From Bilabrum cf. latius (Eukaryota), in assembly GCA_965178125.1 (NCBI GenBank), contig OZ237761.1, forward strand, positions 1-64,000: a DNA stretch of 64,000 bases, given 5' to 3'. Both the position numbers and the translations under genes were made by a program. The notes under the pieces are model-generated. The model was not told where the DNA came from, did no database searches, and saw only the letters and a program-made list of their open reading frames with translations. Positions 1 to 57,578 of the stretch are shown one piece after another (the stretch's first letter is position 1; each line of letters opens with the position of its first letter).

Positions 1-2277
1 ACCCTAACCCTAACCCTAACCCTAACCCTAACCCTAACCCTAACCCTAACCCTAACCCTAACCCTAACCCTAACCCTAACCCTAACCCTAACCCTAACCC
101 TAACCCTAACCCTAACCCTAACCCTAACCCTAACCCTAACCCTAACCCTAACCCTAACCCTAACCCTAACCCTAACCCTAACCCTAACCCTAACCCTAAC
201 CCTAACCCTAACCCTAACCCTAACCCTAACCCTAACCCTAACCCTAACCCTAACCCTAACCCTAACCCTAACCCTAACCCTAACCCTAACCCTAACCCTA
301 ACCCTAACCCTAACCCTAACCCTAACCCTAACCCTAACCCTAACCCTAACCCTAACCCTAACCCTAACCCTAACCCTAACCCTAACCCTAACCCTAACCC
401 TAACCCTAACCCTAACCCTAACCCTAACCCTAACCCTAACCCTAACCCTAACCCTAACCCTAACCCTAACCCTAACCCTAACCCTAACCCTAACCCTAAC
501 CCTAACCCTAACCCTAACCCTAACCCTAACCCTAACCCTAACCCTAACCCTAACCCTAACCCTAACCCTAACCCTAACCCTAACCCTAACCCTAACCCTA
601 ACCCTAACCCTAACCCTAACCCTAACCCTAACCCTAACCCTAACCCTAACCCTAACCCTAACCCTAACCCTAACCCTAACCCTAACCCTAACCCTAACCC
701 TAACCCTAACCCTAACCCTAACCCTAACCCTAACCCTAACCCTAACCCTAACCCTAACCCTAACCCTAACCCTAACCCTAACCCTAACCCTAACCCTAAC
801 CCTAACCCTAACCCTAACCCTAACCCTAACCCTAACCCTAACCCTAACCCTAACCCTAACCCTAACCCTAACCCTAACCCTAACCCTAACCCTAACCCTA
901 ACCCTAACCCTAACCCTAACCCTAACCCTAACCCTAACCCTAACCCTAACCCTAACCCTAACCCTAACCCTAACCCTAACCCTAACCCTAACCCTAACCC
1001 TAACCCTAACCCTAACCCTAACCCTAACCCTAACCCTAACCCTAACCCTAACCCTAACCCTAACCCTAACCCTAACCCTAACCCTAACCCTAACCCTAAC
1101 CCTAACCCTAACCCTAACCCTAACCCTAACCCTAACCCTAACCCTAACCCTAACCCTAACCCTAACCCTAACCCTAACCCTAACCCTAACCCTAACCCTA
1201 ACCCTAACCCTAACCCTAACCCTAACCCTAACCCTAACCCTAACCCTAACCCTAACCCTAACCCTAACCCTAACCCTAACCCTAACCCTAACCCTAACCC
1301 TAACCCTAACCCTAACCCTAACCCTAACCCTAACCCTAACCCTAACCCTAACCCTAACCCTAACCCTAACCCTAACCCTAACCCTAACCCTAACCCTAAC
1401 CCTAACCCTAACCCTAACCCTAACCCTAACCCTAACCCTAACCCTAACCCTAACCCTAACCCTAACCCTAACCCTAACCCTAACCCTAACCCTAACCCTA
1501 ACCCTAACCCTAACCCTAACCCTAACCCTAACCCTAACCCTAACCCTAACCCTAACCCTAACCCTAACCCTAACCCTAACCCTAACCCTAACCCTAACCC
1601 TAACCCTAACCCTAACCCTAACCCTAACCCTAACCCTAACCCTAACCCTAACCCTAACCCTAACCCTAACCCTAACCCTAACCCTAACCCTAACCCTAAC
1701 CCTAACCCTAACCCTAACCCTAACCCTAACCCTAACCCTAACCCTAACCCTAACCCTAACCCTAACCCTAACCCTAACCCTAACCCTAACCCTAACCCTA
1801 ACCCTAACCCTAACCCTAACCCTAACCCTAACCCTAACCCTAACCCTAACCCTAACCCTAACCCTAACCCTAACCCTAACCCTAACCCTAACCCTAACCC
1901 TAACCCTAACCCTAACCCTAACCCTAACCCTAACCCTAACCCTAACCCTAACCCTAACCCTAACCCTAACCCTAACCCTAACCCTAACCCTAACCCTAAC
2001 CCTAACCCTAACCCTAACCCTAACCCTAACCCTAACCCTAACCCTAACCCTAACCCTAACCCTAACCCTAACCCTAACCCTAACCCTAACCCTAACCCTA
2101 ACCCTAACCCTAACCCTAACCCTAACCCTAACCCTAACCCTAACCCTAACCCTAACCCTAACCCTAACCCTAACCCTAACCCTAACCCTAACCCTAACCC
2201 TAACCCTAACCCTAACCCTAACCCTAACCCTAACCCTAACCCTAACCCTAACCCTAACCCTAACCCTAACCCTAACC
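1..2277. repeat. Telomeric repeat array (CCCTAA)n / (TTAGGG)n, about 379 copies; chromosome left end
   Basis: Uninterrupted ACCCTA hexamers from base 1 to ~2277. A single variant unit CCGTAA (2276-2281) marks the junction. The C-rich strand at the 5' end is the expected telomere polarity. Confidence 0.99.
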
Positions 2278-7276: not shown

Positions 7277-10245
7277 ATGAAGCAAAGCGGACGGAAACGA
7301 GCACCGTATACTTCCAATGCATGCTACGCTTGCCGAGCTGGCAAGGTAAGGCGGGCTACACGGAGGTACACTTTCCGCACCAACGCACTGTCTTTTCTAT
7401 CCATCTGACCGGTGAATTTGAACCGTTGAACTGCTTGCGGTCATTTTTCATCAACTATTCGTACATTCAAAGGTTACTGAGTCGGAAATTTGCGCCTTTA
7501 GGTCAGCTTGATGCCTTTGTGCATGTATTTTCCCGTGCGGCGCAGCGGAGATGTAGCGGCGCTCGTCCATGCGAAAGGTGTGCCAGGCTTGGGCGAGAAT
7601 GCGCATCAGGTGCTCCACTTGGTACGAAGCGTCCCCGAAAGACTGTGCGACAGCCCAATGCCGAACCAGAGGGATATGGACGGTCTCAACTGGCGGGCAC
7701 ATCTACTTCCAGTCGTCCTAGCGGTGGTTCTGATCGCTATTCGCGTGCAGACTCGGCCCAGTACAGCAATTCAAACAGTTTGCGTTCGCTTAATCATATG
7801 TCTGCGGAGAGTGACGGTACTCGGGCCGCCATTCTGAAGCGTCGCCGGATTGAAGCGGACTCGTCTGTACTTCTCGGGTTTGCCTCCGGCGTATAGCAAG
7901 CCTAGAGGCAAAGCATTGTTTCACCTGCTAGCATTGCAGGAGTTGATGCCCAGCGTGGGTCCGGCTCTGGCGGTAGTCATGTCGCTTTGCACTAGCAGCC
8001 GACCTCTGGCATCCAGCTCCAAGTCTCGCCAGCAACACACGCCCAATTTGCACGGATGCCCAATACCGGGCCCGTGTAGCCCGGTTTAAATATGGGAGGT
8101 ATGATGTTGTAGCATTAGGGTGGAATCTAGTCCACAGGTCAGGGTATCGCCGTTCTTTCTCCCGCAACAGCATCCCAACCCGCATTTGGGCCGCAGCGGC
8201 TCGCGCCATCTGTGGGCTATGCGGTCCCCCCCACTCAGCCAGCCCCCATGTACGTGTACATGCATTAGAACGGCCAGCTGCGAGCACCATCTGCCCCTCA
8301 GGTTGTCTATCAGGTGCCACAGCACCAACACCCCGGTGCCGGTGCCCAGCCACTGCAACCCATGCGTATATCAGAGGTATCGCAAGGCGCGCACTTGCTG
8401 GCTCACGGAGCAGGCGGCAGCAGGGCGGGGCCAGCTGCTGTTGGCATCAGACTCGATGCACTAGGGGGAGAGGGGGCTGCCCAGCCAGCGGATGTGCGCG
8501 CAGCTTTGTCCTATGGTACGCAGCCAGTTGCTTTTTCTTCGCCTGCAGGACAGGTGCAGCTTGGCGCCGCCTCAGGGGCGGGCTAGGGCCGTGTCGATGC
8601 CGGTGGATTTGTGCGAGAGAGGGCCCCGTTGGAGTAGAGGGTCACGGCTGGGGGACAGCGGCTCGCGGGGCCTGATGTTCCAGCGGTGGTGCCCTCCGCT
8701 ATCGCCAGCTCTGGCGCGTCACCCGTGGCCCGTGGGCCCAGCAGTCCGGCCCGGCTCGCAGCAGGCCGGGTCAGAGAGCAAGTGAGAGACTTCTGGCGGC
8801 GGGAGGGGGAGCGGCTCGGTCGGGAGCAGGGGTCTGGGCGGGGAGCGGGCAAAGAGAGCATCATCCGGGTGTTGCCTGGCGAGTGCAAGCGGCTGGCTGC
8901 CGCGGTGGGCAAGGTGCTCGAGTCGGACCAGGCGCTGGGGGCAAGGGGGGCAGCGGGGGCGGACGTGCTGCTGGAGGAGGACTAGTGGCTGGCTGGTCTG
9001 GACCTTGGCCAGGGTAAGGCAGCCTCGCAGCCATCTACTTCGGAGACCACTCTGGCTGGTGATCGCGCCGGAAGCACTATGTCGGCTGCATCACTTGGGG
9101 AGGGGGCCAGCGAGGGGGGGGCTGCGGCGGGGGAGCGGCATGGGGCAGATGGGGCAGCCAGTCGTCTGGCAGGGGATAGTGGAGATACCGAGGACGGCGA
9201 ATCGCCGATCGCTCGTCCGTCAAGAATGCGCGGGGGTGCGCCCGTAACCGGTGGCAGCCAGCGAGCCACCATGGTCATCTTGGAGAACGTGGCTCTCAAG
9301 CACCTACCCGTGCCCGCTGCCCGCATGGAGTTCACGTACGAGCCCAACAGGCCCTCGAGCCTGTACATTAACGACGCGGGGGCCGCAGTGCTGGGCTTTG
9401 GGTGCGAGGAGCTGTCCGGGTGCATCCGGCAGGGCTTCTTGCCGGTGGCCTACGATCCGTAGAGCTGGCTGGAGAGGGGCCGTGCGGTGCTGCCTGCGGT
9501 GCGGGACCGCCGCAGCTGGTTGGTCCACAGGTCCAAGATGCGGCGTGTGGTGAGAGGGGACGTGCAGCGGCCGTGGGAGGGCCTGCTGCTGCAGTACTTT
9601 GAGATGACAGAGACTCTGTACTTCGAATGGTTCGACAGTGATCAGTAGGAGGGGTAGTGTACAGGCTAGAAAACGGGCGGCAGTGGGCAAGCAGCCGGGG
9701 CCGAGCCTCGGAGCGGAGGTGGCTGCAACCGGTTCCGCGCTGCGATCAGTTACTTCAGTGATATCGTGGATCTGGACGAGACGCTGTGGATCTAGCCAAC
9801 GAAAGAGGCTTGGACTGGACGCGGGGGTGCAGGTCAAGCTATGGCCCCTTTCTCTTCGTCCTCATCGTCAGCAGCTTCGGGTGGCCGGCATCAGTACCAG
9901 TTCCCCTCTGGTGAGGCATGCGGCATGTACTACGTACGGCTGAACGAGGCGCATGGCCTTGGGCCCAAGCTGGAGGGGGTGCAGCGCACGGCAGGCGGGG
10001 AGCAAGTGGCTGTGGGGGCAGCCGGAGGTGAGGCGGCAACTGATGGGCCGTCCTCAAGCTCATCTGCTGGTGAGGCCACGCAGCTGACGCCTTCCGGAGG
10101 CATCGTCACGGTGGGCGCGAGCCCGCTGTTCCACCTCGTGTCACCCTACCACATGCTGGAAGCAATGGGAAGTGAAGCGCTTTCCTTGCCGGGCAGGTCT
10201 ATGGCGACTGGATCAACTATTACGAGTGGGGGCAAATAGCACTGA
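7277..10245 (+). CDS. Zn(II)2Cys6 (GAL4-type zinc cluster) transcription factor with PAS-like region, ~922 aa; exons 7277-7345 and 7546-10245
   Basis: Splicing GTAAGG(7346)...CGCAG(7545) assembles CYACRAGK|RRCSGARPCERCARLGREC, the C-x2-C-x6-C-x5-C-x2-C-x6-C pattern. Exon 2 stays open through 17 TAGs to TGA 10243-10245. PAS-like core LYINDAGAAVLGFGCEELSG at ~9360-9420. Confidence 0.85.
7346..7545 (+). other. Spliceosomal intron (200 nt, phase 0)
   Basis: GTAAGG donor, pyrimidine-rich tract and CAG acceptor. Removal restores correct zinc-cluster cysteine spacing. Confidence 0.88.
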
Positions 10246-43200: not shown

Positions 43201-44336
43201 TTTCCTCAGTCTCGGGTGCGACGTCTGGCACCGGAAGCGACGGACCCCAGCTGGGTCTCGCGGTGAGCGAGGGAGGTGGGTCTGCCACTGTGGCTGGCTC
43301 TGCGGCGGGCAGCCTGACAGACAGCAAGGCTGGGAATGGCGCGCCCGGCGCTGCTGGGGCCAGTGCGACCGACAGTAACACTGGCTTTGCAGCAGGTGCC
43401 GCCAGTGCTGGTCCCAGCGGGCTGCTTGCTTCGGTTATGTAGGTGCGGCAAGATGACAAGGACCGGGCCAACGCGTCACAATCCGCTGCAGGGTCGGCCC
43501 CTGGGTTTGCGTTTGACGCGCAGGCCGCCGCCCTCGTGCTGGCCTCCGCACGCGGTTCCCAGGACGCCCAGGTGCAGGCCAAGTGCGCGCACTGCGGGTT
43601 GGTGCTCGTGCTTCCAGAGCTGATGCGGAAGGGCCGGTCGATGAAGGAGTGGGTCCAGAAGCAGAGGCCCAACGTGCTTCAGTGCATCGCGTGCAAGAAG
43701 GGGCTCCCTCGCTGCTCGCTGTGCTTGCTGCCCATGGGCTGCATCAACCCGATCATGCAGATCAGCGAGGAAGAGAGGAGGAGCAGAGGGGCCGATGCTG
43801 GGCTGCAGAGGGGGCTGCAGCTAGCGCAGGTCTCTCCCATGCGCTCGCCGACGCACAGACCCGTCCAAGTGGGAGCGACTCCCGGGGCGCCTCCTGCCGA
43901 CCCATTGGTTGGCAGCAGTGGTGGCGTGGACGGGGCTTGGGATGCCAGCGCTGTCTCTGTGCTGCCCGCAGCGGCCCGTGCACAGCAGCGCAGCTCCCTG
44001 CCGTTCGGGGACTTCTGGTCCTGGTGCCAGTCCTGTCGCCACGGTGGGCACGCGAGCCACCTGGCTACCTGGTTTGCGTCCAACGACATCTGCCCGGTCG
44101 CGACGTGCGCGTGCAGGTGCAGACGTCTGGACATGCAGGCAGTTGGGTGGCAGGGCACTACCGGTGGATCGGCTGGTGAGGCGCTCGGTGCTACTAATGC
44201 TGCTGATGGAGGAGAAGCCGCCGCGCTGTCTCGGTACGAGGAGGCGGGCACGATCGGGGGCTCGTCTTGGCTAGCTGCTTGGACCATGCCAGCGGCTGAG
44301 TCTGCGGTCGGGAAGACGAGAGGGAGTGGGAGCTGA
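37242..44336 (+). CDS. MIOS: GATOR2/SEA complex subunit MIOS (Mio/Sea4), ~2,364 aa
   Basis: One frame with 12 TAGs, ending TGA. Mio motifs LPLPDRLGFLCRF, GRLEALPLTGL...LLQRYVD and W..SLRQWLNSRRLWQARAALD, and the C-terminal zinc/RING region CIACKKGLPRCSLCL...FWSWCQSCRHGGHASHLATWFASNDICPVATCACRC. Confidence 0.88.
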
Positions 44337-44551: not shown

Positions 44552-47500
44552 ATGAAAAGCCGCACAGCAATCCGCAGCAATTCGCATGTTAAGTCTACTG
44601 TGATTCAAAATCCGATGGTCGCAGGGCGAGCATAGCGCAGTTCTCAGCGATCCCCCCTTGCGACCGATACGCCCGCACCGGCGGAATCCGATTCTCAGGG
44701 CCAAGATGCAACTTCAAACGAGTGGAACAACTACTTAGACAAACAAACAGTATCGCTAAAGGTTGCACGGCCACGGGTACGAGTTGATGTTTGCTCTGCT
44801 GCTGTATTTGCGGAACGGCAAGCCAACAAGCAGAATCCAGATGGACTCGCAGGATATTTCGCAAGCACGCTGTCGTGCGGAGCGTGCGATGATCCTACGG
44901 TTCAGTTCAACGTGCTTCATCCAGTTTCGTGTGAGTTCGTACCCAATCAGACCCCCATACCCGCTACAAGAAGCCCTTTCATATGCTCGCGACGGTCTTC
45001 AATGCCATGTCTGCAGTGCGGCTCACACCTGGTTCGCTGACCATGGTGCTTTCAAACCCTGGAGGTGGTACAAGCACCCTGCTGAAGCTTATTTCGGGGC
45101 GCCAGCTTCCGCACGAGGGAGAAGTTATGTTCAATGGATGCAGTTCCGTCGATCTCCAGCGAGTCTCTGGGGCGGACCACCGCAGAATTGCATCGTATGT
45201 GGGCTAGGCTGACGTACACGAGCCAATGTTTTCAACGCGAGAAATGTTTGAAGTAAGATTTTGCATATTAAGCTGCCATGGTGCCCCGCTTAAGTGACTT
45301 GCATGGTTCAATGCAATCTCTAGTCGACGCCACCTGGGCGCAGTTTGCTGCTGGAGCTACGTTTGGAGGCATGCAGCAAGAGATTGCGGATTCTAAAGAT
45401 AGATTCCTATTTCAGCCAGCGGCTCGTGCCACCGCAATGCTCAAACTGCTGCGGTTGGAATCCTGCGCCGACACGAGCGTCGGCAGCGCAACCATTCGGG
45501 GCATAAGCGGCGGCCAGAAGCGCCGAGCGTCTCTCGGAGAGGTGCTCTTGACCGAACCACGGGTGCTTTGTGGGGATGAAATCACCGCAGGTCTTGATGC
45601 TGCTGCTGCCGAAGAGGTGGTGCTCCGCCTCAGGGAGTATGCCCGAGTTACCGACGCGACCGTGGTGCTTGCGCTGAAGCAGGCCACCCCGGGCATGTAC
45701 GAGTTATTCGACGAGGTGGTGCTCCTAAGTGACGGGCACGTGATCTACCACGGGCCTAGAGAGGAGCTCGAGGGAAACCTGGCGGCCAGGGGGTTCCCCC
45801 CGCCCCAGGAGGGGGACTTCTGCGACTGGCTAGCCGCACTCGTCACAGACCCCGCCTTGGCCACACCTGCTGGTCACACGGGACCTGTCCCGACAGCAGA
45901 AGAACTGTCGACTGGTGTCAATGGCTGGTACCGCAGCGACGCCTTTAAGAGGCACGTCGACCGGCGCTCGCCCCCTAGGTCGGCACTGGGGCAGCAGCTG
46001 CTACCCCAGGGGCAAGACCCAAGCGCTGACTACGATGACCTCGGGCTGTTCCTGCGGACAAGCCCAGCCCTTGCCCTGCGGTTCGGAGAGGGTAGTAGGA
46101 TGAATTTCTGTTCGAGGTTCGGCACTATGATGGCGAGGCAGGGCAAGCTGATGTGGAGGCACCCGGTGCTGACCAGGGTCCGCTGGCTCGAGTCCATTCT
46201 GCTGGGGCTGCTGTATGGGGCGGTTTTCTTCTAGCCCGACGTGAACGATTTTGCGCCCAGGCTTGGTGTGAGTAGGCTACGTGTCAATCGATTGTGATCG
46301 TCGAGTGCATTTGCCGAACCCTAGCTCTTCTCTGTGCTCGCCGGTTTCTATCATCTCGACCGCTCGCAGCTCGCAACTGTAGCGCTGGTGCACGTTGCTT
46401 TTGATTTTGCCGTGAGTATTCCGAACGCCACTGTGCCATGCATTTGCTAGACATCATAGGCGTGCGGACGTCATGTGGCTGTATTCTGCTCATTTGCTAG
46501 TTCCGCAGGAAGTGCACGCTGGTATTGACGGCAGAGCTGTGGCGTACAAGCTCTCCCGGTCGGGCATATTCGACGACTTCATGTACATCCTTGCAGTCTG
46601 CCTTGTGCATGCCCCAGTCGCCCTGATCAACGGACTGTGCTTGACTGTGTGCGTCTATTTTCTTGCCGACTACTCACTGGAATTCACTCGATTCATGGTA
46701 TACTGGGTGGTGCTGTTCAGCGCACAGATGGCAATGTCTGGTTGGTTTAGGATGCTGACTTACATCAGCCCGTCGTTTGAAGTGGCGCACACGCTTGGCG
46801 GCACTGTAGTTGGAATCTTCCAACTGACGGCGGGATTCCTGGTGACCCGCACCAACATCCCCATGTTTATGCGATGGCTTTACTACGTGAACCCGCTCAG
46901 CTGGGCGCTCCGTAGCCTGGCATTGAATGAGTTCTTCGCTACCAGGTACGACAAGCCTGTGGAGCTGGGCATAGAAGGGATACGCAACGGGACGGTGGGT
47001 CTACATACCTACCAAGCCATGCAAAACAACTCGAGCACGCTTAGAAAGCGAGAGGCCTTCCTAGCCGTCTTCGACATCGAGGATGATTCGTAGCTGGCGT
47101 GGATGTGGGGAGCTGTGGCGTACATGCTGGGCACATGGTTCCTCTTCGGCATCGTTCTGTCCTACTTTGCTCTGGCCAGCTGCAAATATGACTCGAGGCC
47201 GGGGACGCAGCGAGTGTATGACGAAGGCATCCGCAGGCAGCTCTCAAGGAGGCGCTCCTTCATGCGAAAGCAGTCCCTGTCTACCGCGCGGTCCATCAGC
47301 TCTGCCAAACGGGCTGCTACTGGACCGAGCGCCAGCACCGAAGAGGACGAGTTTAACATGGTAGGGGGCTTCAACAGAACCAACGCGGCTGACACGTTGG
47401 AGTTAGACACAGTCGAGCTTGATGCAGGCACCACCACGTCCTGCCATGAAGAGCCGTTCCATGTGCCTTGTCCTGCCAGTTCAGACGTGGAGAGATCTGG

Positions 47501-49583
47501 TTCAAGCATTCAAGACGGGAACGTTCAGTGTGTCCCGGTCGAGCTGGCGTTCAATGACATTCAGTACGTGGTATCTGTGCCTTCTTCAGGCAGTAACCGC
47601 GCAGGCACCGCACTCTCGGAATCATAGCAATTCCATGCATTTGATGCTCTTCGGGCGTAGGCAGGGTATACCCATGTAAATGGCCGTGCGGGTGGTATCG
47701 GCTCTGGCCCCATCGCTGATGGCGGTGCCAGTCAGCTGCCACTGCTCCAGGGAGTATCCGGTATTTTCAGACCAATGCGTCTAGTTTGCTTGATGGGTGC
47801 GTCAGGCGCGGGAAAGACAACATTACTGGATGTACTCGCTGGCCGCAAGACCCAGGGCACGGAATCAGGCGTCGTTCGTCTAAATGGGCGGCCAGCATCG
47901 AAGCAATAGCGGGCTTCCTTGACTGCATATTGCGAGCAGACCGACCAGCACTTGCCGACATTAACGGTCGAAGAGTCACTGGATTTCTCGGCTAGGCTGA
48001 GGCTAGACGCAGATACTGCAGAGAACGAGAGCAAACGGCACGCAATCGTGAGCCATGTTATGGAACTGCTTGAGCTAGACTCCATCAAAGGCCGGCCTGC
48101 TGGCTCTCTGTCTGTCGGCGAGGCCAAGCGCCTCACCATCGGCTGCGAGCTGGTGGCCAACCCGAGCCTGCTCTTCCTGGACGAGCCAACTACAGGGTTA
48201 GACTCTAGATCTGCCGTGCAGGTGATGCATGTGCTGCAGAATGTGGCACAGACAGGTCGCACCGTGGTTTGCACGATCCACCAGCCGAGCTATGACGTGT
48301 TCACATCCTTTGACGACGTGCTACTGCTAGCCAAGGGCGGGCGGCAGGTGTACTTCGGTCCCATTGGCGACCACTGTGAGGACCTGGTGAGGCACATCGA
48401 GGCACATCCAACTGCTACACTGCGCCCGATCAGAGTAAATCCGGCAACTTGGATGCTAAATGAGCTGGAGGCGGAACGGGAACGAGTGGACGCATTATTG
48501 GCAGGCGGCGGTACATCCGGTACGGAGGGCCAACCCCTGGTACTTAAGCAGCTCAGATCGAGCCTCCTTTTTGAGACGTTCAGGGACTCCTAGGCATTTG
48601 CGTCTTTATCCCGGGAGCTAAAGCACAGCTAGGCTGCCCATTCATCCGCTGCCGGGCGCACGCAGGCTCGCACCAGCAAGTTAAACGACCTGGCTAGATT
48701 CGCGGCTGTCCTAGAGAGAACCTTTACGGACAGCTACCGTGATATAACCTTCAATGGATCAAGGTTTACAACCCTAGTTATGCTTGGACTCATCTTTGGC
48801 TTGCTGTTTTTCGGGTTAGATTTCACGTCAAGTCAAGGCGGCGTGCTATCCATGGTTGGGGTGCTGCAGAGCATGGCATCCTACAGCGGGATCCAGTCAC
48901 TTGCGGCGCAGGTGGTGCTACTATACAAGTATAGACCGAACTTCTACAGAGAGAGGGCACTTGGGATGTACGGCACCACGACCTACTACCTGACTATGGC
49001 ACTGAAGGAGGTCGTGTACCTCGCCTGTCTTTGCGTGGTATTCACTCCGATTGTGTACGCCTTCGTTGGGCTTCGGTTCGACCAGATCAGCGTGTTTGCC
49101 GAGACGATAGCCAGCGTATTCATCGTGGGGTTGCAACTGTCCCTCATGTCACAGTTCTTTGCTGTGGCTTTTTCGAACGTGCACACGGCCGAGTTTTTCG
49201 TCGGGGAGCTGTTGCTCATCCAGACCATTTTCAACGGGGTATTCACGTCGGGCGTACAAAACTACAAACCTGCTCTGCGCTGGCTGGCGTACCTGAACCC
49301 ACTCTTTCTCGTAAATGTGCCTCTGGCCCTAAACTAGGCTCACTGCTTCGATGCTGGGCCCCCGGCTGACGAACTAGCTCGTATTGAGGCCGGGTGTCCC
49401 ACAATTTCCGTGGTGAACAACGGTGTCGAGCTGGTGCAGACGGTGGAAGGTTATGTAGAGCAGCTAGTGGACGCGACCTATGCGGAACGTTGGAAGTACT
49501 ACGTCGGAATATTGGCGATCACTGCTGGGTACCAGGCCCTTGGGTACGTGCTTGGGCAGGTGCTTGACTTCTAGAAGCGCTGA
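44552..49583 (+). CDS. Full-size ABCG / pleiotropic drug resistance (PDR)-type transporter, NBD-TMD-NBD-TMD, ~1,551 aa; exons 44552-44930, 45017-45252, 45344-46267, 46370-46411, 46509-49583
   Basis: NBD1: [14 protein letters not shown][TAG][28 protein letters not shown]2: [74 protein letters not shown]. Two TM blocks; C-terminus LDF[TAG]KR-TGA. 11 in-frame TAGs. Start could be 44615. Confidence 0.93.
44931..45016 (+). other. Spliceosomal intron (86 nt, phase 1)
   Basis: GTGAGT...CTGCAG. Removal gives [20 protein letters not shown], matching the PDR pre-Walker-A segment. Confidence 0.8.
45253..45343 (+). other. Spliceosomal intron (91 nt, phase 0)
   Basis: GTAAGA...GCGCAG. Removal gives STREMFE|FAAG (family pattern TVRETLEFAA). 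Confidence 0.85.
46268..46369 (+). other. Spliceosomal intron (102 nt, phase 0)
   Basis: GTGAGT...TCGCAG, preceding a 42-nt hydrophobic exon [14 protein letters not shown]. Confidence 0.72.
46412..46508 (+). other. Spliceosomal intron (97 nt, phase 0)
   Basis: GTGAGT...CCGCAG. Removal gives [18 protein letters not shown] (family pattern AE......R.VFYK). Confidence 0.75.
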
Positions 49584-49756
49584 GGATCCGGAGGATATGG
49601 TTCTGGAAGATGGAGACGACTAAATGACTGCCATGTACGTCCATGTGAACTCATTACGTAACTTACTATCAACTCTGCAGAGGAGAGACTCCATTTTATC
49701 TTGCTGCAGCCTGTCAACATGGGTGGGTCGGTCCACACAGATGCATTACTAAGCTC

Positions 49757-51910
49757 TCAGCGAGTTGCCATCCCAAGCGGAGGCACCACCCAGACAAACT
49801 CCTCGGCAATGACGCGCCCAGTGCCCTCACCAGGGCATTCCACAGCATGCCCATCGCAAGACTTGCTGCAGCTCCAGACGAAGACCGATAGAAAATCAGT
49901 CCCTAGCAACAGGCCGGCCGGAGCGCCAGCAGGGCGGCCTGTTTCTGCTTCTGCTATCAGGGACGGCAGCAGCTGCACCTCAAAATCGCAGGTAGCGCCG
50001 CACCGGCGGCACGGTGGCACGGTAGGCCTCACCTTTGACGAGGCCGGGGGTGCACCTGTTGGCCACAGGGGTTCGCCGCCGTACGCATATCGAGCCAACT
50101 ACCGGGGCGCGCAGGCCACTCGTGCTCTAAACGCATCCAATGAAGCCTTTATTACCAGCGACGAGGCGCCGCTTTGTCTAGCTGCGCACACGCTTCCGCC
50201 GATACTGGACTCGCCACCTGAAGACCCCTTCCCCTTGCCATGAGCTCCACGCCTCAATGGCTTCCCCTTCCCTTTTACAGTGCTTCCGTCACCAGAATGT
50301 CCAGCAGTTCTCCATCCGCCCGTGCCTCGCCCCGCTAATCCTGGTCCCTCCTCTTTCTCCGCCGTCTCCGATCTCCAGCTCGCCACTGAGGAAGCCGTTG
50401 AGCGCCGGCCTGCCCCACTGTTGCCTCCCTGCGGCCGCTATCCTCGCATCCAATCCCTGCGCAGGTCATCGTCATCGCTGTCGTCTTCCTCCTGGCCCGG
50501 CCCCATGCTTCGACTAGAACCGATCGATCCGTCTCCAGGGCTTGTTCCCACCGCAGTGCTCGGCAACAAGTCCAGAAGAGATCCTGCACCCGCACTCGCG
50601 GCATGCTTCTCGTGCTTACCTCTGCCTTTTCCCTTTCCTTTCTCTTTGCCTTTTGGTGTGTGCAGTGCATGCTCAGCCCCTCCCTTGGCTGCACCACTCC
50701 CATCGCCGCTAGTCATACCGGCGTCTTCCTTCTCCTGTGCAAGGTACCTCTGATAGAGCTCTTCAATATGCGCTGCGTCCCCACTACCTGCAGTCATCGC
50801 GCCGGTTCCAGATCCCGCTGCACTCCTGCCGGTCCCTACCCTTTCCCTGTCTCTTGCTTTCTTTTCGGCAGTCAGGGCCTCCCACGGCTCCTCCTCGCAT
50901 TTCACGGGCATCACAGGCAGCACGATTCCGCTGTCCGTGCCCGCGCCTGGCCCGATCGAAGGGTCCATACTAGCACCTGCTGCTTCCGCTGCACCAGTAG
51001 CAACAGGGGCGCTACTAGTTGAAGCGAAATCAGTAACGCCGGCATCGGAGTCCTACTTTGTCACCCCCGTCGCTGTGCTTCCCACCTGCCTGAACGTGCT
51101 AGCAGACCTGCTGGGTGATCCGGAGGTAGCATCTGCCCTATCTGAGTCTGGCGCTGGCCCAGTGCCGTGCGACTATGTATCTGGCCCGATACAGGCAGCA
51201 AGATCAATGCCTTGCGTAAGCACAGGGCTGCCACTAGCAGGGTCAGAGGGATCGGCTGCAGCTGCAGCGATCGATCCAGTGGCGGAAGGACCCGAGCTCG
51301 TGCCAGTGGTCGGCTCTGTCCAATCCACTGCTGCTGCAGTGTCCCACGGATTTGGTTCGCTGCCAGCAGCCTGGTCTGGGGAATCCACTGCGGCCCAGTC
51401 CGCTGCGCCGTCCTCCGTTGCCTCACCCTCTGGGACCGGGTCTCCAGGGGCGCCCCATGCGCTGCTCGTGTCTTGGTCCAGCCCGGACCAGTCATCAGCG
51501 GCATCTGGTGTGACACCAGACGAGCTAGGTGCGCTAGGCTAAGTCGGACTAGAATCATGACCAGCTCTTGTACTGGAGGTTGGCTCTACTGACGGCTCCG
51601 CCGCCCTGCCGCCTGGGGCTTGGCTGCGAAACACGCGTACTGTTCCAGGCAATCCAGCGCAGTCACTGCGGCGACATACGAACGTATTCAGATATCTCTT
51701 CTCAGTTCCGTAGCATGGAGCGTGAAGCTGCATCAAGTGAATCATTTTGTCGCTGCAATTTCTGCATGTTGGCGTTCTTCGCGGCAACGGTGGTCTCGGA
51801 GCTCCGCCAACGAAAGATGCTTGTGACAAACTTGTGGTTTTCCCCTACAAATCGCAAGACGCGACAAGTAAAACTGCCTCTTCATGCGATCTTGGTCCCA
51901 CAAACGACAT
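49757..51910 (-). CDS. PDCD2L: PDCD2-like / Tsr4 family protein (uS5 chaperone, PDCD2_C domain), ~717 aa
   Basis: Minus-strand frame from ATG 51910 to TGA 49757-49759 through 6 TAGs. N-terminal SFVGGAP...CRNCSDKMIHLMQLHAP...RYLNTFVC....C...VRVFRSQ. C-terminal AFRARVACAPR[TAG]LARYAYGGEPLW...PPCRRCGATCDFEVQLLPSL...DF.SVFVWSCSKSC...EEFVWV. No MYND finger seen. Confidence 0.87.
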
Positions 51911-52068
51911 CACGCGCTAAATCAGGCCGAATAGTTGGATTCTATCCCTTTATCTATTTGGCTCCGGATGTGAGGTACTGGGGTTAGTAACGTGCGAGTC
52001 AAACAAAATCGGAATTTCTCACATCTTGCCAAACTGCAACAGTTGCACTTACCTTCGCACCTAGGGCT

Positions 52069-53835
52069 ATGAAGACTGTTGTTCCTTTGCTTGCCTCGAT
52101 ACTAGCAGCGAGTGCGCTGGGATCACCGGAAGAATTATTGAGAGATGCGGTTTTGCAGTCTCTGGGAGCAGGCTTTGCACGTATGTCTCATCGGCAAGAG
52201 AGTCTTGGCGCTTCCGTCGGCCATGTCTTGGCAGAGATGCACAGCCGTCTATCTGGCTAGTTTGGATCCAGTGGACGTCGGGCGTCTGGGAGTCCTCCAC
52301 CGGGTGGCAATGGGACTGCCCTGCTGCCTGACGGGTACTACAGGATTATTCCTACCTTTGAAGGCGGCGCCACTCTACCTGGCAAGCCAGCGGTGGCTCG
52401 GAACGGCGCCAGCCCAGTCGTATCTTACGAGTCGAGGTGTTTTGCCTCGAACGAGGCGAAGGTTTCATCTGTCTCAGACGGCGCGATCGACTTGCAGATC
52501 ACCGGCACCGGCCCGGCCAAGGGGGCCGGCCTGCTGACCCCTTGCACTGAGCTGTACCTCATCGTGCACCCAGGGGACCTGCAGTTCGCCACCATCAAGA
52601 CGGACGGATCAAAGCAGAGCGAGTCCACGACTGTGAAGATGTCCTATAACATCACGGCGCTGCCAGAGGGCACGCAGGAGTGGCTCGGCCACAGCGGCGT
52701 GCGCGTGATGCGGTTCCTTTACGAGCCCCTGGACCTGATCGGAGACCTGGCCGATACTCTGAGCCTGTACATCCCTGCCCTGGCCGAGCCCACCCTGGAC
52801 GCCGCCAGCGCCGAGAGGAACCTCGAGCTGCTGCACGACTACTGCGGGGGGGTGCAGATGCCCCCCCGGAGCAAAATCGTCACGGGGATCCCAGAGGAGG
52901 AGATCAAGTCGGGCACGCTCCTGGCCATCAACCGCCTGGACGGGCTGGGCACGCTGGAGGACTGGGCCACAGGTGCCCGCACCACCCACATCGCCACCAT
53001 GATGTGGCTCGGGTCGGGCGCTGACAGGGCACTCCACGTGGTGGAGAGCACCGACACGGAGAGCTACTGGCCCAACCCGAACATCCAGAGTACCCTGCTC
53101 AAGGAGTGGATCCCCCTAGCCGTGGCTGCCAACTACTCAGTGGCGCTGCTGCCCCTCAAGCCAGAGCTGCAGGCCAAGTTCGACGCCGGAATCGAGGCGG
53201 CCGAGAACTTCATCTCGGGGTCTCTGGGCGAAAAGTACGGCTACAGGTCATTTGTGGCGACTTTCTACGATGTTCCCGTGGGATCACTTCCGTGGCCCGC
53301 CACATGGCAGGCGGTGGAATCGATCTTCCAGCTGATCGGGCTGGTGGCGCCCTCGATCCCCGAGCTCATCATGAACGAGGGTCTCAACAAGAGGCTCAAC
53401 TCCACGGGACTGGGCATGGTGGCCGCGGCGAATTTGGCCAACCAGAGGAACGTGAGCTGGGGCGAGCTGCTGGCTATGCCGGAGCAGGATTCGTGGGTGT
53501 ACTCGGACGGGCCAGCGAGGGTGTGTGACGTCTACTCGTGCTCCATCTACAAGGCCGCCGGCCTCTTCGGTGACCTGACCGACAAGATCCAGTGCGGCGA
53601 GTTTTAGAACAGGGACGTGTACTCGCTGGATTTCTACGACGTAGCCAGCGAAGACGGGCTGCATGACCCGCGCCCCGCGGCGTGCAAGGAGGCGGACCCG
53701 ACGCTCCCCTACTGCATGCTCATTGGCACGAGGCAGATCGAGCTGAACGGGGTGAACTCGGTGGCGCCGTACGCCGGGATGAACGAGAGGTGCGCTTCCA
53801 CCCCGCCACACTACACACGTGCAGAGGGGTGCTGA
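52069..53835 (+). CDS. Secreted protein, ~588 aa, probable permuted papain-like (NlpC/P60 superfamily, YiiX/YebB-like) domain
   Basis: Signal peptide MKTVVPLLASILAASALG. One frame through TAG 52258 and 53605 to TGA. His-before-Cys motif order IKSGTLLAINRLDG...TTHIA...LHVVES...GEKYG...PEQDSWVYSDGPARVCDVY..IYKAAGLF. Confidence 0.72.
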
Positions 53836-54161
53836 TTTTATGGAATTTGTTTTGCGAGTGCTTAGAGCCAGGCCCCGGTGAGCTTTGTGAACGTTGTGAC
53901 GTGACGCACGCGCATCGGTGCAACGCTTGAGGATGCGACTGGTGCAAGCCTTGCGAACCTACTTGCATGGTTACGGTTTACATTTGTTTGCTTGTACGAC
54001 CAGAATATAGAGACTCTCTCTACGGCAGTGGCTTCAAGTTGTTGTGAAGGAATCATACTCATCACGATCCGCTGGCATCCAGCGGTGTAGTCTACACTGG
54101 CACTAGCGCAACCTGAAGCTACTTGTCCTAAATCCCAAAGGCAAACAGTCTGTGTACCTGT

Positions 54162-57100
54162 ATGAAGCGAAAGCGTGAGGCAGGCGCCAAAGGGGCCGGA
54201 CCAGATTCGAGCGACCCAACGAAGCAACCCAAGGCTGCTAGAAAAAGCACAGTCTCGGCCTGTCTAGCTTGCAAAAGAGCCAAGCGTTCTTGCTGGGCTG
54301 AGAGACCATGTCCCCGATGTGTAAAGCGCGGGATTCCGTGTGTCGAGGTGTTGGACCGCAGGAGCAAAGCCTTTCGTAAAATAAAGTCTGCTGTGAGCGG
54401 GTAGGCGTCATCCTCCATCGTGGTGTCCGTGCACGGGAAGTCCGATAGAACTACTGTGTTCAAGAAAAACCTATCAAAAGGTGCGCGCGAGTCTCTGAAT
54501 GCGGCGTCCAGTGACAGCGCAGACCACGCCCCATCGGATCCCACTACGTCAGAAGACAGCACAGAGTTCAGGCCCAGTACGTTGTTGGATACATAGGAGA
54601 AAACAGTTCGCTGCGATCAGACAGTGAATGATCGGAAATGCAGTAGACCATCTGGCATTGCTGGCCCGCACCAAGCTGCTGCCAGTAGAGGGATACTCCG
54701 TTCTCGTACAGCTAGCCTACCTGCCGCTGGCATGTAGTCTTCCTCCTCTGTATCGTACGCGGAGCAGCAGCTGAGGATCCGTCAGTTAATGGCGCTTGGA
54801 CCCCCGCTATCCATGTCCCAGCCGATGCTGACGATGCAGATCGACAGCAGGGGCGGTCTCCTAATGACGGTGCGGCAGGACCCCACGCACCCAGGTCTGC
54901 AAGCTTTGCTTGGCCAGGACTACAACCGCACCGTTTTCGTGCCACCGGCCATCGAGTCGGCTGCGAACGGGGTGTTGCTGCCGGATGGCGCTCGGCCTGT
55001 GCTACCCCCCCAAGCGCTCCAGCTGCAGAGTGCCTACCAGATTCAGGCGCACGACGCCTACATGTTCGACCAGCTGAGCCGGTCCCCCATCCCAGTGATG
55101 CGGCAAACCTACAATATGCTCACTCTGCAGCCGATGCAGCTATTCATGAACGCAGCAACTCTCGGCATGGTGTGCGGGGAGGAGGAGGTGGCGGTGGCGT
55201 ACATGGGCACGTCTGACTAGCTGATGGAGATGGACCCAATCAGCGCCGTGCTGTAGTCCACCAGCCAGTTGGGAGCTATCATCGGCAGGCGAAGGACGTT
55301 CACGCTGCCTGGTCAGATGTGCAGGCATTTCTTCGTGTCTGAGAAGGCAAAGCAGGAGGCCATGGAGTTTGTCGGATTGGTGGAGGAACAGGGCGAATCC
55401 TACACCAGTGCGGCACGCAAAGCGGTTGCAATCGTCGGTGAGAGACTCGCGCAGGCTCAGGCTCAGCACCACACATCTGCTGGTGCATCGAAGGCGAGCA
55501 GCGGCTTTGGCTCGGCATCGGGCGGAATGGCGGGGGGTGCACGAGCGAGAGCAGGATCAGGATCCTCGTCAACTGGGACGGATACATAGAGCAGCCTGAG
55601 CGGAGAAGGGGAGGCCACCCATTAGCAGGCAGGGGAGGAGGAGGAGCCGCTCTTCGACTTCTTGACGGAGCGCGTGGCCTCGGTGCTCTTCTACGTCGAG
55701 CATGAGATTACTGCCGACTGGGTAGGCACTGCCCCCCGGGCGTTGTGCGGACAGCTCAAGAACTGGGAGAGTCTCCCGAGTAAAGAGGAGCATCTCGGGG
55801 AGTTCCGTGGCCTTGCTGACCAACGGATCCAAGGGCCTTACCTGCCATGGTGCTGGGCCGCCGCAGAAACCATTGAAGCGAAGCAGAAGGAGGAGCCTTT
55901 CCGGCCGTGGTCGACCCGACCGACAAAGTTACCAACTAGACGTTTGGATGGATCTGTCTAGCCCCTTGCTTCTGGGACAGGGCATCCCCCAGTCCCGCAT
56001 CCAGCAGCGCAGAGTGGCGATGCAGCGACGCCACCTTCTAGCCGTGACGTGACGCACGGCCAGCACTTGAGCCACCCTTCCTCTGGACAGGAGTCGTCGG
56101 GTGCATCGGTCCCTATTGATGGCGTACAGTCAAGTAACCCTTCGTCATCATCCGGAAAAGGATCCTCTGGCGCATCAGCGGCCACCGACCAAGACAACAT
56201 CGCCGACGATGCGTCCAGCTTGCCACGCGGCAGGGCTTCCGCGATGCATGCCACCTCGACCAGCAGCCGACCTGGAAGTGCTGCGTCTGGAGTATTGCAA
56301 GCCGGCAGTTCCACCACAGCTCATCAAGGTCCAGGCCACGATTGGATGCAGACTCCGGCCAGTGGAAGCCCCAGCGCCGGATCTGCTGGTAGCAGCTTGC
56401 ACATGCCAGCAGGGGAGGGCAACGACCGCGCCGGGCGATTCGCCCTAGGCAGCCCTTAGAGCTTGGCGCTTGGCTCCTTGGGAACCGGCTCAGTACTCGA
56501 TGATGGTGCCGGCAAAGGCGCCGGCAATGACGATGCGTCCTCTCTTGCATCACATGGGATGCAGCCCATGATGCTCGGCTCTCCCTCTGCTGGTTTCGAT
56601 GCTGGCGCCGGCGAGTCGAAGCAGTCCCGATCGTGGGGTGGATTCGAGCCGGGTGAGGTGGCACTCACCCGTCCCATTTCAGCAGCAGACACACACAGGA
56701 TGGACCCGCCGAGGGGAAGCACAAAGACATACGTGGAGGCGCCGTCCTTGGGCCTGCCATATTCGGGGTCATAGCGATTCCTGAGTCCGGGGTAGGCAAG
56801 TGGTCAGCAGGCCATGATCGAGGAGGGGATGCCGGGTGCACACGGTGCAGGTGCTAGCAGTGGTGGATCGGCGTATGGAACCGGCGCTGGAGTAGGTGTC
56901 TCGTCATCGTCAAGCAGTGCAATGATTGGTGCTGGCAGCAGCAGCAGCAGCAGCAGCAGCTCTCATGCAGCTGCAGCTGGTGCAGGCCACGGCATGAGCA
57001 CACTGCAGCCCATGCCTATGGTGCACCGCTTCGGCGGCGTCAGGCGCTCCGATGATCCAGGCCACGGTACGGCTGCAGGTCAGATTTGGGATCTGGACGA

Positions 57101-57578
57101 GATCAGCGAGGTGTCCGGCTCAGTCATGTCCAGCTTGCCGCCCTCCAAGCGTGCCCGGACGGAGCGGGGCGGCGCCGGTGGCACAGGCAGAGCGGTGCCG
57201 CGGATGGATGGTGAAGATGGATTCGGATCACCTCTCGGGGAGGCATCAGGCACTGGGTCGTATGCGTACGTATGGCCTGAAGCGTCTGATTCCCCAACTC
57301 ATCACGAATTGCGCCAGGATGCCGCGGGTGGTGCAGCGCACCTGTCTCCTGCCGACCGTGCCAGACTCCGGTGGATCCCGCGTGAGCTACTCGCGGTGCT
57401 GGACCCAGTGGACGTGCAGATGCTGAAGAGGAAGGTCGTTCTGCAATCGGAGCTGCAAGCATGGCACTTCGATTTCCGCAGGAGGCTGCAGATGCCGGGG
57501 AGCAGGCTGGGTGAGGAGCTGACGAGGTTGATCCTGAGTGCCTCGAGCGGGGATGCGAGGATAGTTGGACCATCGTAA
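54162..57578 (+). CDS. Zn(II)2Cys6 zinc-cluster transcription factor, ~1,138 aa
   Basis: ACLACKRAKRSCWAERPCPRCVKRGIPC near the N-terminus. The frame continues through 11 TAGs to TAA 57576-57578, with Ser/Gly/Ala low-complexity regions. Confidence 0.85.
56935..56960 (+). repeat. (AGC)n microsatellite encoding poly-Ser within the second zinc-cluster gene
   Basis: gcagcagcagcagcagcagcagcagc read as AGC Ser codons. Confidence 0.8.

What the first reader, a model, noticed from the sequence alone, without database searches (positions are those of the whole stretch)
50060..50140. UAG = glutamine, evidence 2: conserved Gln of the PDCD2_C domain is TAG (minus strand)
Seen: AFRARVACAPR-TAG(50099-50101)-LARYAYGGEPLW. 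Established: the PDCD2/Tsr4 C-terminal domain pattern is F..R....P.Q(V/I)LRY..GG.PLW with a strongly conserved Q. This is an independent family on the opposite strand giving the same answer. The gene's likely ATG (51910) is also only reachable by reading through TAG 51845.
Basis: partly seen in the sequence, partly recalled or inferred. Interest (0 to 1): 0.8.

Follow-up and report, generated by a model that had tools for sequence, protein, structure and literature searches.

The report
UAG read as glutamine, confirmed
In this stretch of a eukaryotic chromosome end the usual stop codon TAG sits inside working genes exactly where related proteins carry a conserved glutamine, so this organism uses a rare genetic code in which TAG means glutamine.

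Summary
On the minus strand, TAG (50101..50099) lies in frame between ..ACAPR and LARYAYGGEPLW. It falls inside a PDCD2_C domain (Pfam E=4.2e-19). In 150 aligned stretches from homologues, that column is Gln in 144.

Other genes in the window agree. In the neighbouring spliced ABC-G/PDR gene, TAG 45205-45207 is the NBD1 Q-loop Gln (Q in 120 of 120). TAG 49335 and TAG 49572 sit in columns with Q in 81 of 117 and 82 of 114. TAG 53605 is CAG in an orthologue from a related organism. Two TAGs in a Zn2Cys6 gene are CAG in a diverged copy.

Pooled, 4 of 7 well-aligned TAG sites fall in the 13 of 896 columns with Q at 60% or more (P about 9e-7).

Thirteen long ORFs hold 128 in-frame TAG, no TAA and no TGA. 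All end in TGA (11) or TAA (2). One unspliced contig with no differences wraps the whole PDCD2 ORF.

Best reading: UAG alone is reassigned to Gln (NCBI table 15 type) in a GC-rich, non-ciliate eukaryote. The tRNA and eRF1 could not be examined.

The parts
49757..51910 (-). CDS of a PDCD2/Tsr4-family protein, 717 aa. ATG at 51910..51908, stop TGA at 49759..49757, six in-frame TAG codons, and a low-complexity insert of about 480 aa between the conserved N- and C-terminal parts.
   Evidence: frame. (PDCD2_C, E=4.2e-19). (N-terminal motifs shared with 72 full-length homologues). (one X6 contig on 49662..51921, no differences, no joints).
50099..50101 (-). The TAG codon of the finding (residue 604 from the ATG, 605 in P0001 numbering). 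It sits at the P-x-Q-[VCLI]-[LVI]-R-Y motif of the PDCD2_C domain.
   Evidence: Q in 144 of 150 aligned stretches. There is no gap around it, so the codon occupies exactly one residue position.
49787..50140 (-). PDCD2_C domain (Pfam PF04194, profile positions 4-109 of 111).
51845..51847 (-). First in-frame TAG (residue 22 from the ATG). It lies between the conserved V-x-L motif and the S-x-x-G-G-x-P motif, in a variable column.
   Evidence: The L001 orthologue has a TAG one position away.
51539..51541 (-). In-frame TAG in the low-complexity insert.
51173..51175 (-). In-frame TAG in the low-complexity insert.
51053..51055 (-). In-frame TAG in the low-complexity insert.
50438..50440 (-). In-frame TAG in the low-complexity insert.
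44552..49583 (+). Full-size ABC-G/PDR transporter gene, 1551 aa after splicing. Four GT..AG introns at 44931-45016, 45253-45343, 46268-46369 and 46412-46508. Eleven in-frame TAGs. Stop is TGA.
   Evidence: joints in X6 and X7 contigs; splice sites, frame; family.
45205..45207 (+). TAG at the Q-loop glutamine of nucleotide-binding domain 1 (Y-[VI]-x-Q-x-D-x-H).
   Evidence: Q in 120 of 120 homologues; 35 of 35 in phmmer local alignments. (coordinates).
49335..49337 (+). TAG in transmembrane domain 2 of the ABC protein (residue 1470).
   Evidence: Q 81, V 26 of 117.
49572..49574 (+). TAG two codons before the TGA stop, in the family's C-terminal N-[FH]-Q-[KR]-R end.
   Evidence: Q 82, L 20 of 114. 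The last query residue aligns to R in 108 of 115.
46232..46234 (+). TAG in transmembrane domain 1 (residue 502), in a mixed column.
   Evidence: R 61, Q 42 of 118.
53605..53607 (+). TAG at residue 513 of a secreted phospholipase-B-like protein (gene 52069..53835).
   Evidence: Q in 4 of 6 homologues (T and D in the other two). CAG in the 72%-identical orthologue on L001.
55218..55220 (+). TAG in the Zn2Cys6 gene 54162..57578. It is CAG in a diverged copy present in run X6.
55254..55256 (+). TAG in the same gene. It is CAG in the same diverged copy.

Best explanation
The window is the end of a nuclear chromosome of a GC-rich, intron-poor, non-ciliate eukaryote. Its translation system reads UAG as glutamine and keeps UAA and UGA as stops, the variant that NCBI lists as table 15.

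The TAG at 50101..50099 is therefore an ordinary Gln codon. It supplies the nearly invariant glutamine of the PDCD2_C domain of a PDCD2/Tsr4-family protein. From recalled literature, this family acts as chaperones of ribosomal protein uS5.

Shown here:
- TAG is in frame in real, expressed, full-length genes.
- TAG occupies single residue positions.
- Those positions are Gln in homologues.
- TAA and TGA are never in frame.
- A related organism does the same.

Inferred, not shown: decoding by a tRNA-Gln with anticodon CUA, and an eRF1 that no longer recognises UAG. This mechanism has been proposed for Iotanema spirale (PMC5304391, passages read).
For: 1. PDCD2_C column: Q in 144 of 150. The domain match spans the TAG.

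2. ABC transporter: Q-loop column Q in 120 of 120. Residue 1470, Q in 81 of 117. Residue 1549, Q in 82 of 114.

3. Pooled test: 896 query columns have at least 80 homologues, and 13 of them are at least 60% Q. Of the 7 TAG sites among these columns, 4 hit such a column (hypergeometric P=9.2e-7). No TAG site falls in a column that is at least 60% any other residue. The mean column frequency of Q at TAG sites is 0.54; the next residue is S at 0.11.

4. Joint log-likelihood over 8 columns: Q -17.0, next S -31.3 (only the top 7 residues per column were entered).

5. Orthologue L001 (423 of 585 residues identical) has CAG where the window has TAG 53605. Both TAG codons covered by a diverged copy in run X6 are CAG there, and most of its other changes are synonymous.

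6. In 13 ORFs totalling 17,871 codons, in-frame counts are TAG 128, TAA 0, TGA 0. The two off-frames hold TAG 160 and 135, TAA 67 and 52, TGA 274 and 346. One ORF is 6177 codons long with 52 TAGs. Reading TAA as sense changes none of the five largest ORFs.

7. Stops are TGA in 11 ORFs, TAA in 2 and TAG in 0. The TGA ends of the ABC and PLB-like genes coincide with the family C-termini.

8. X6 contig 49662..51921 has no differences and no joints across all six TAGs.

9. The relative's contig L001 has in-frame TAGs in both syntenic genes. Database protein P0285 is exactly the fragment between its two TAGs.
Against: - Several TAG sites lie in columns where Q is not the commonest residue: ABC residue 1235 (S 67 of 113), residue 994 (T 72 of 206), residue 1222 (D 23, E 23 of 112), residue 502 (R 61 against Q 42 of 118), and PLB residue 64 (A in L001). 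L001's own TAGs face S and H in the window. All of these are variable columns where the query's neighbours also depart from the consensus.
- No tRNA gene was found in the window or in L001-L003, and no genome is held. The decoding tRNA and eRF1 are therefore unseen.
- There is no protein-level evidence.
- The homologues for the PDCD2 column were retrieved with Q at the TAG, although they were re-aligned with X.
- The tool labels run X6 'RNA? (probably DNA)'. Its RNA nature rests on my reading of the GT..AG joints and on contigs that break at intergenic DNA.
- UAA as a stop rests on two ORF ends and on the absence of in-frame TAA. No C-terminal homology supports it.
Confidence: 0.93

Rival explanations
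1. [quoted passage not shown] It would be Gln inside genes but would still end some genes, as stop codons do in Condylostoma or Blastocrithidia.
For: Only 13 ORF ends could be examined, and the ORFs were defined with TAG as sense. A gene that truly ends in TAG would simply have been extended. Without raw reads or ribosome profiling, termination at UAG cannot be excluded.
Against: None of the 13 ORFs ends in TAG. TAG occurs very close to true stops: two codons before the TGA of the ABC gene, at a conserved Q of the family C-terminus, and one codon before the last residue of ORF 7321..10245. Position-dependent termination would be expected to avoid that.
Confidence: 0.04
2. UAG is a sense codon for a residue other than Gln (for example Glu, Leu, Ser, Tyr or Lys, as in other lineages). 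On this view the Gln columns are coincidence or lineage-specific substitutions.
For: Some TAG sites sit in columns dominated by S, T, D/E or R. UAG=Ser and UAG=Leu nuclear codes exist (PMC11687900, passages read).
Against: Four of 7 well-aligned TAG sites are in Q-dominated columns (P about 9e-7), and none is in a column dominated by another residue. The Q-loop Gln is 120 of 120. TAG faces CAG at 3 conserved-context sites in relatives or diverged copies. The joint log-likelihood favours Q over the next residue by 14 natural-log units.
Confidence: 0.02
3. The TAGs are not translated. The genes would be pseudogenes, or the TAGs would lie in introns, be edited to CAG in the mRNA, or be assembly errors.
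For: None specific. This is the default reading under the standard code.
Against: - There are 128 TAGs but no TAA or TGA in 17,871 codons.
- The domain alignments run through the TAGs without gaps.
- Known introns here are 86-102 nt with GT..AG ends, and none covers the TAG.
- Contigs from three other runs reproduce the sequence with no differences. Among them are one cDNA-like contig over the whole gene (X6), one DNA-like contig (X5, 49818..53547) and one further contig (X8, 50308..51170).
- A relative shows the same usage.
Confidence: 0.01

Closest known systems
Nuclear code of Iotanema spirale (Fornicata): UAG=Gln, UAA and UGA stops (Panek et al. 2017, PMC5304391; abstract and passages read)
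   Same: UAG alone is reassigned, and to glutamine. UAA is kept as a terminator. The inference comes from in-frame UAG at conserved Gln positions.
   Different: This window shows CCCTAA telomeres, about 58-60% GC, Zn2Cys6 regulators and a full-size PDR transporter. Its best named homologue for one gene is a stramenopile (Cafeteria, 39%). Nothing here ties it to fornicates, but its lineage was not determined. The eRF1 change proposed for Iotanema (T32G) could not be checked.
Ciliates with UAG-only to Gln: Hartmannula sinica, Trochilia petrani, Protocruzia tuzeti (McGowan et al. 2024, PMC11687900; passages read). NCBI translation table 15.
   Same: The codon table is the same. In those species 58-70% of the internal UAGs examined sit at conserved Gln, comparable to 4 of 7 here.
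   Different: The window is a conventional chromosome end carrying 379 perfect CCCTAA repeats and is GC-rich. From recall, ciliates have other telomere repeats and mostly AT-rich genomes.
UAR=Gln codes (NCBI table 6): many ciliates, Hexamita, ulvophycean green algae, Streblomastix, Amoeboaphelidium protococcarum (listed in PMC11687900 and PMC5304391, passages read)
   Same: UAG is read as Gln.
   Different: Here TAA is never in frame (0 in 17,871 codons against 52-67 in the off-frames) and it ends two ORFs. Reading TAA as sense does not change the five largest ORFs.
UAG-only reassignments to other residues: rhizarian exLh (Leu), Scotinosphaera (Ser) (PMC11687900, passages read)
   Same: UAG is uncoupled from UAA.
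   Different: The residue differs. Here no TAG site lies in a Leu- or Ser-conserved column.
PDCD2/Tsr4 family (Pfam PDCD2_C, PF04194)
   Same: The C-terminal domain scores above the Pfam cut-off. The N-terminal motifs (V-x-L, S-x-x-G-G-x-P, C-x-x-C, Q-x-x-A-P, R-x-L, F-x-C, R-x-Q) are shared with 72 full-length homologues.
   Different: A low-complexity insert of about 480 aa makes the protein about twice the usual length of 340-460 aa. No MYND finger was detected by Pfam.

Membership tests
Genetic code with UAG=Gln and UAA/UGA as stops (NCBI table 15 type) | UAG occurs in frame inside genuine, full-length coding regions. | tested here: met
   128 in-frame TAGs in 13 ORFs. Pfam domains and family termini lie on both sides of TAGs. 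One contig covers the whole PDCD2 ORF.
Genetic code with UAG=Gln and UAA/UGA as stops (NCBI table 15 type) | In-frame UAG aligns to conserved Gln in homologues, more often than to any other residue. | tested here: met
   144/150, 120/120, 81/117 and 82/114. Pooled, 4 of 7 sites fall in 13 of 896 Q-columns, P=9.2e-7. Three TAG-to-CAG correspondences.
Genetic code with UAG=Gln and UAA/UGA as stops (NCBI table 15 type) | UAA and UGA are not used as sense codons and do terminate genes. | tested here: met
   No in-frame TAA or TGA in 17,871 codons. ORF ends are TGA in 11 and TAA in 2. TGA ends match the family C-termini in the ABC and PLB-like genes. For TAA the C-terminal homology was not checked.
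Genetic code with UAG=Gln and UAA/UGA as stops (NCBI table 15 type) | UAG no longer terminates genes. | tested here: inconclusive
   None of 13 ORF ends is TAG. The sample is small and the ORFs were defined with TAG as sense.
Genetic code with UAG=Gln and UAA/UGA as stops (NCBI table 15 type) | A tRNA-Gln with anticodon CUA (or another UAG decoder) is encoded. | not testable with these tools
   No tRNA in the window or in L001-L003. No Rfam match. No genome is held.
Genetic code with UAG=Gln and UAA/UGA as stops (NCBI table 15 type) | eRF1 is altered in its stop-recognition motifs. | not testable with these tools
   eRF1 is not in the window and no genome is held.
Genetic code with UAG=Gln and UAA/UGA as stops (NCBI table 15 type) | Gln is found at UAG positions in the protein. 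| not testable with these tools
   This needs mass spectrometry.
PDCD2/Tsr4 family (PF04194 PDCD2_C) | C-terminal domain scores above Pfam's gathering score. | tested here: met
   69 bits against 30, E=4.2e-19, profile positions 4-109 of 111.
PDCD2/Tsr4 family (PF04194 PDCD2_C) | Motif F..R....P.Q[VCLI][LVI]RY..GG.P[LV]W is present. | tested here: met
   The query has F, R, P, TAG, L, A, R, Y, G, G, P, L, W at these columns. Only the residue after the [VCLI] position (A in place of L/V/I) departs.
PDCD2/Tsr4 family (PF04194 PDCD2_C) | N-terminal half carries the G-G-x-P and Cys-pair motifs. | tested here: met
   G35 (58/61), G36 (61/62), P38 (52/63), C49 (57/62), C52 (54/62), Q61 (60/68), R72 (64/68), C79 (59/68), C84 (59/66), R95 (58/62).
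PDCD2/Tsr4 family (PF04194 PDCD2_C) | Binds and chaperones ribosomal protein uS5 (function recalled from the literature). | not tested
   No binding prediction or assay was run.

The most novel reading that the evidence does not exclude
The window belongs to a eukaryotic lineage in which a UAG-only to Gln nuclear code has not been reported. It is neither a ciliate nor, by its gene content, an obvious fornicate. Its telomeres are TTAGGG-type and its genome is GC-rich. At least one related organism, about 72% identical in an orthologous protein and seen only in a metagenome, shares the code. That would make this a further independent origin of the rare uncoupling of UAG from UAA, held by a clade rather than a single species. 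A long-read assembly reaching a telomere is available to find the tRNA and eRF1 changes behind it.
Probability: 0.45. Interest if true: 0.8.

Novelty: new member of a known kind. Interest (0 to 1): 0.7.

Why it matters
Nuclear codes in which UAG and UAA differ in meaning are very rare. The passages I read list one fornicate and a few ciliates for UAG=Gln, one rhizarian and some ciliates for UAG=Leu, and one green algal genus for UAG=Ser (PMC11687900, PMC5304391).

There is a practical consequence. Any annotation of this genome under the standard code will break most long genes. The database fragments P0002 and P0285 appear to show this in a relative: P0285 is exactly the piece between two TAGs, and P0002 is an 80-residue fragment.

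There is also a scientific consequence. A GC-rich organism with a chromosome-scale assembly and cDNA-like data in several runs would be a good system for asking how eRF1 loses UAG but keeps UAA and UGA, and which tRNA took UAG over. For this particular finding the result is simple: the PDCD2 gene is intact and its conserved Gln is encoded by TAG.

Tried and rejected
- **Solved structures.** The PDCD2 C-terminus gave only chance matches with E of 0.026 or worse, so no structural reading of the conserved Gln was possible.
- **Neighbour-residue enrichment around TAG sites.** Q is only 1.12-fold enriched. Uninformative, dropped.
- **Comparison of the two Zn2Cys6 ORFs in the window.** Only the zinc cluster aligns and no TAG column is informative.
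- **phmmer local alignments of the ABC C-terminus.** They covered too few homologues (18-20) and looked mixed. MAFFT L-INS-i over the C-terminal 330 residues gave 114-117 homologues per column, and those counts are the ones used.
- **First metagenome scan**, with the relative's fragment P0002, found no locus. The second scan, with alignment A2, found L001-L003. L002 (72% GC) looks standard-code, with long ORFs that end in TAG, and L003 is too short. Neither was used.
- **Lineage placement from best hits.** ABC and CDC20/CDH1 homologues (plants, oomycetes, green algae, all 30-49% identical) do not resolve it. The lineage is left open.
- **RNA evidence.** No RNA holder is listed for the gene. 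All runs laid were contigs, so starts, ends, strand and expression level cannot be claimed. 145 further differences, 162 pieces and 63 loose ends were not shown, so the TAG-to-CAG tally covers only the rows printed.
- **Literature.** Searches found no report of UAG-only=Gln outside Iotanema, the named ciliates and phages. Subscription journals and supplements were not searchable.
Full report
**The observation.** On the minus strand the sequence reads A-P-R-TAG-L-A-R-Y-A-Y-G-G-E-P-L-W, with the TAG at 50101..50099. Under the standard code the frame breaks into pieces of 95-176 aa. With TAG read through it is one ORF, from ATG 51910 to TGA 49759..49757. It is 717 aa long and carries six in-frame TAGs and no TAA or TGA. 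Pfam PDCD2_C matches residues 592-709 at E=4.2e-19 (69 bits, cut-off 30), so the domain runs straight across the TAG.

**What the TAG column holds in the family.** I searched the C-terminal 159 residues against 1.84 billion representative proteins and got 599 hits at E of 0.001 or better. I re-aligned the best 150 to the query with X at the TAG. The TAG column is Q in 144 of 150 aligned stretches (D2, H2, N1, P1 otherwise). Three of the six exceptions are the N-terminal pseudo-repeat of the same proteins, not the C-terminal domain. There is no gap at the TAG, so it stands for exactly one residue.

**The start codon claim.** Aligned with 72 full-length homologues, the N-terminus carries the family's V-x-L motif at residues 13-15 and the S-x-x-G-G-x-P motif at residues 32-38. 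TAG 51847..51845 (residue 22) lies between them, in a variable column. No ATG lies between the TAG and the second motif. An orthologue on metagenome contig L001 starts with the same M-[SA]-F-[VL]-G and has two in-frame TAGs of its own before the G-G-x-P motif.

**Is TAG a sense codon across the window?** With TAG as sense, 13 long ORFs appear. They include one of 6177 codons with 52 TAGs and one of 2364 codons with 12. Together they hold 17,871 codons, with 128 in-frame TAG, 0 TAA and 0 TGA. Their two off-frames hold TAG 160 and 135, TAA 67 and 52, TGA 274 and 346. TAG is thus as common in frame as out of frame, while the other two stops are excluded. The zero counts follow from how the ORFs were defined, but open frames of that length cannot arise by chance at these off-frame stop densities. 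Reading TAA as sense as well (table 6) changes none of the five largest ORFs. Eleven ORFs end in TGA, two in TAA and none in TAG. The reassignment therefore concerns TAG alone.

**Independent families.**
- Contigs of runs X6 and X7 carry four GT..AG joints of 86-102 nt upstream of and within the ABC ORFs.
- Joining the exons gives a 1551-aa full-size ABC-G/PDR transporter with 11 TAGs.
- I aligned it against 120 homologues.
- TAG 45205-45207 is the Q-loop glutamine of NBD1: Q in 120 of 120, and 35 of 35 in local alignments.
- TAG 49335 lies in a column with Q 81 and V 26 of 117.
- TAG 49572, two codons before the stop, is the Q of the family's C-terminal N-[FH]-Q-[KR]-R end: Q 82 of 114.
- TAG 46232 lies in a mixed column (R 61, Q 42 of 118).
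- Other TAGs lie in variable columns where Q is rare: residue 994 (T 72 of 206), residue 1222 (D 23, E 23 of 112), residue 1235 (S 67 of 113).
- In the neighbouring phospholipase-B-like gene, TAG 53605 is Q in 4 of 6 homologues, with T and D in the two most distant.

**Statistics.** Over the three alignments, 896 query columns have at least 80 homologues, and 13 of these are at least 60% Q. The 7 TAG sites among the 896 columns hit 4 of the 13 (hypergeometric P=9.2e-7). No TAG site lies in a column that is at least 60% any other residue. The mean column frequency at TAG sites is 0.54 for Q and 0.11 for the next residue, S. A joint log-likelihood over 8 columns gives Q -17.0 and S -31.3 (only the seven commonest residues per column were entered, so this is approximate).

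**Relatives and copies.** L001 is a 3219-nt metagenome contig with the same divergent gene pair. It encodes a PLB-like orthologue (423 of 585 residues identical) that has CAG where the window has TAG 53605. It also has two TAGs of its own, which face S and H in the window, both in variable stretches. Database protein P0285 is exactly the piece between those two TAGs, which is what a standard-code gene caller would produce. A diverged copy of the Zn2Cys6 gene in run X6 differs mostly at synonymous sites. It has CAG at both TAG codons that it covers, 55218 and 55254. A further 145 differences were not printed, so this tally is partial.

**Transcripts.**
- All four runs laid are contigs, and the tool marks X6 'RNA? 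(probably DNA)' and X7 and X8 'RNA?'.
- X6 and X7 nevertheless hold contigs with GT..AG introns removed.
- X6 contigs stop in intergenic DNA: 49662..51921 around the PDCD2 ORF, and 52048..54015 around its neighbour.
- An X5 contig runs across that intergenic stretch (49818..53547).
- I read X6 as holding cDNA.
- On that reading the PDCD2 mRNA is a single unspliced molecule with all six TAGs unchanged. That excludes an intron, two separate transcripts, and U-to-C editing.
- The same contig, if it is DNA, still confirms the sequence independently.

**Mechanism.** Shown: UAG is decoded as one residue, and that residue is Gln by homology. Inferred: a tRNA-Gln reading UAG, and an eRF1 that has lost UAG but kept UAA and UGA. 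This has been proposed for Iotanema spirale, whose eRF1 has T32G in the GTS motif (PMC5304391, passages read). Neither component is in the window. ARAGORN and Rfam find no tRNA and no genome is held.

**What is known.** In the passages I read, UAG-only to Gln is reported for Iotanema spirale (PMC5304391) and for the ciliates Hartmannula sinica, Trochilia petrani and Protocruzia tuzeti (PMC11687900). The latter paper also lists UAG=Leu in a rhizarian and UAG=Ser in Scotinosphaera. The window starts with 379 perfect CCCTAA repeats (1..2275). It is 53-68% GC in 4-kb windows. It carries Zn2Cys6 regulators and a PDR transporter. Its best named homologue for one lineage-restricted gene is Cafeteria roenbergensis at 39%. 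It does not look like a ciliate, and nothing links it to fornicates, but I could not place it. Seven literature searches found no further lineage with this code. Subscription journals and supplements were not covered.

**Verdict.** The finding is correct and strongly supported. The code variant itself is known, and the organism appears to be a further, possibly new, bearer of it.

Noticed in passing
window 1-2275 (subtelomere to about 2500): A perfect array of 379 CCCTAA repeats starts at the first base, followed by G-rich degenerate repeats. The window therefore begins at a chromosome end with TTAGGG-type telomeres.
   Followed up: partly
window 18373-36906 (+): One uninterrupted 6177-codon ORF with 52 in-frame TAGs and no Pfam match at E of 0.001 or better. 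Its first residues loosely recall the start of bridge-like lipid-transfer proteins (from memory, untested).
   Followed up: no
window 44931-45016, 45253-45343, 46268-46369, 46412-46508: Four short GT..AG introns (86-102 nt; three begin GTGAGT and one GTAAGA, and all end CAG) in the ABC-G/PDR gene. They are defined by joints in contigs of runs X6 and X7. Most other genes in the window look intron-free.
   Followed up: yes
L001 1-3219: A metagenome contig from a related organism keeps the divergent PDCD2 / PLB-like gene pair and also has in-frame TAGs in both genes. The code seems shared by a clade.
   Followed up: partly
window 54190-55430 and 56185-57480: Runs X6, X7 and X8 hold a second, diverged copy of the Zn2Cys6 gene with many synonymous differences and small indels. 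It could be a paralogue, an allele or a close strain.
   Followed up: partly
window 52069-53835 (+): A secreted-looking 588-aa protein with no Pfam match, named 'Phospholipase B-like' in its Cafeteria homologue. It has only six homologues in 5.8 billion proteins. Its contigs have the highest word depth among the gene-covering bins of run X6; the two bins over the gene-free stretch 57341-58674 are as high or higher.
   Followed up: partly
window 37242-44336 (+): A 2364-aa ORF with 12 TAGs whose only Pfam match is a C-terminal zinc_ribbon_16 domain. It may be a GATOR2/MIOS-like protein (from recall).
   Followed up: no
window 57880-58063: Very high contig depth in all four runs (up to about 3000 in X6), with shared small differences and loose ends. 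This suggests a repeated or highly expressed short element between two genes.
   Followed up: no
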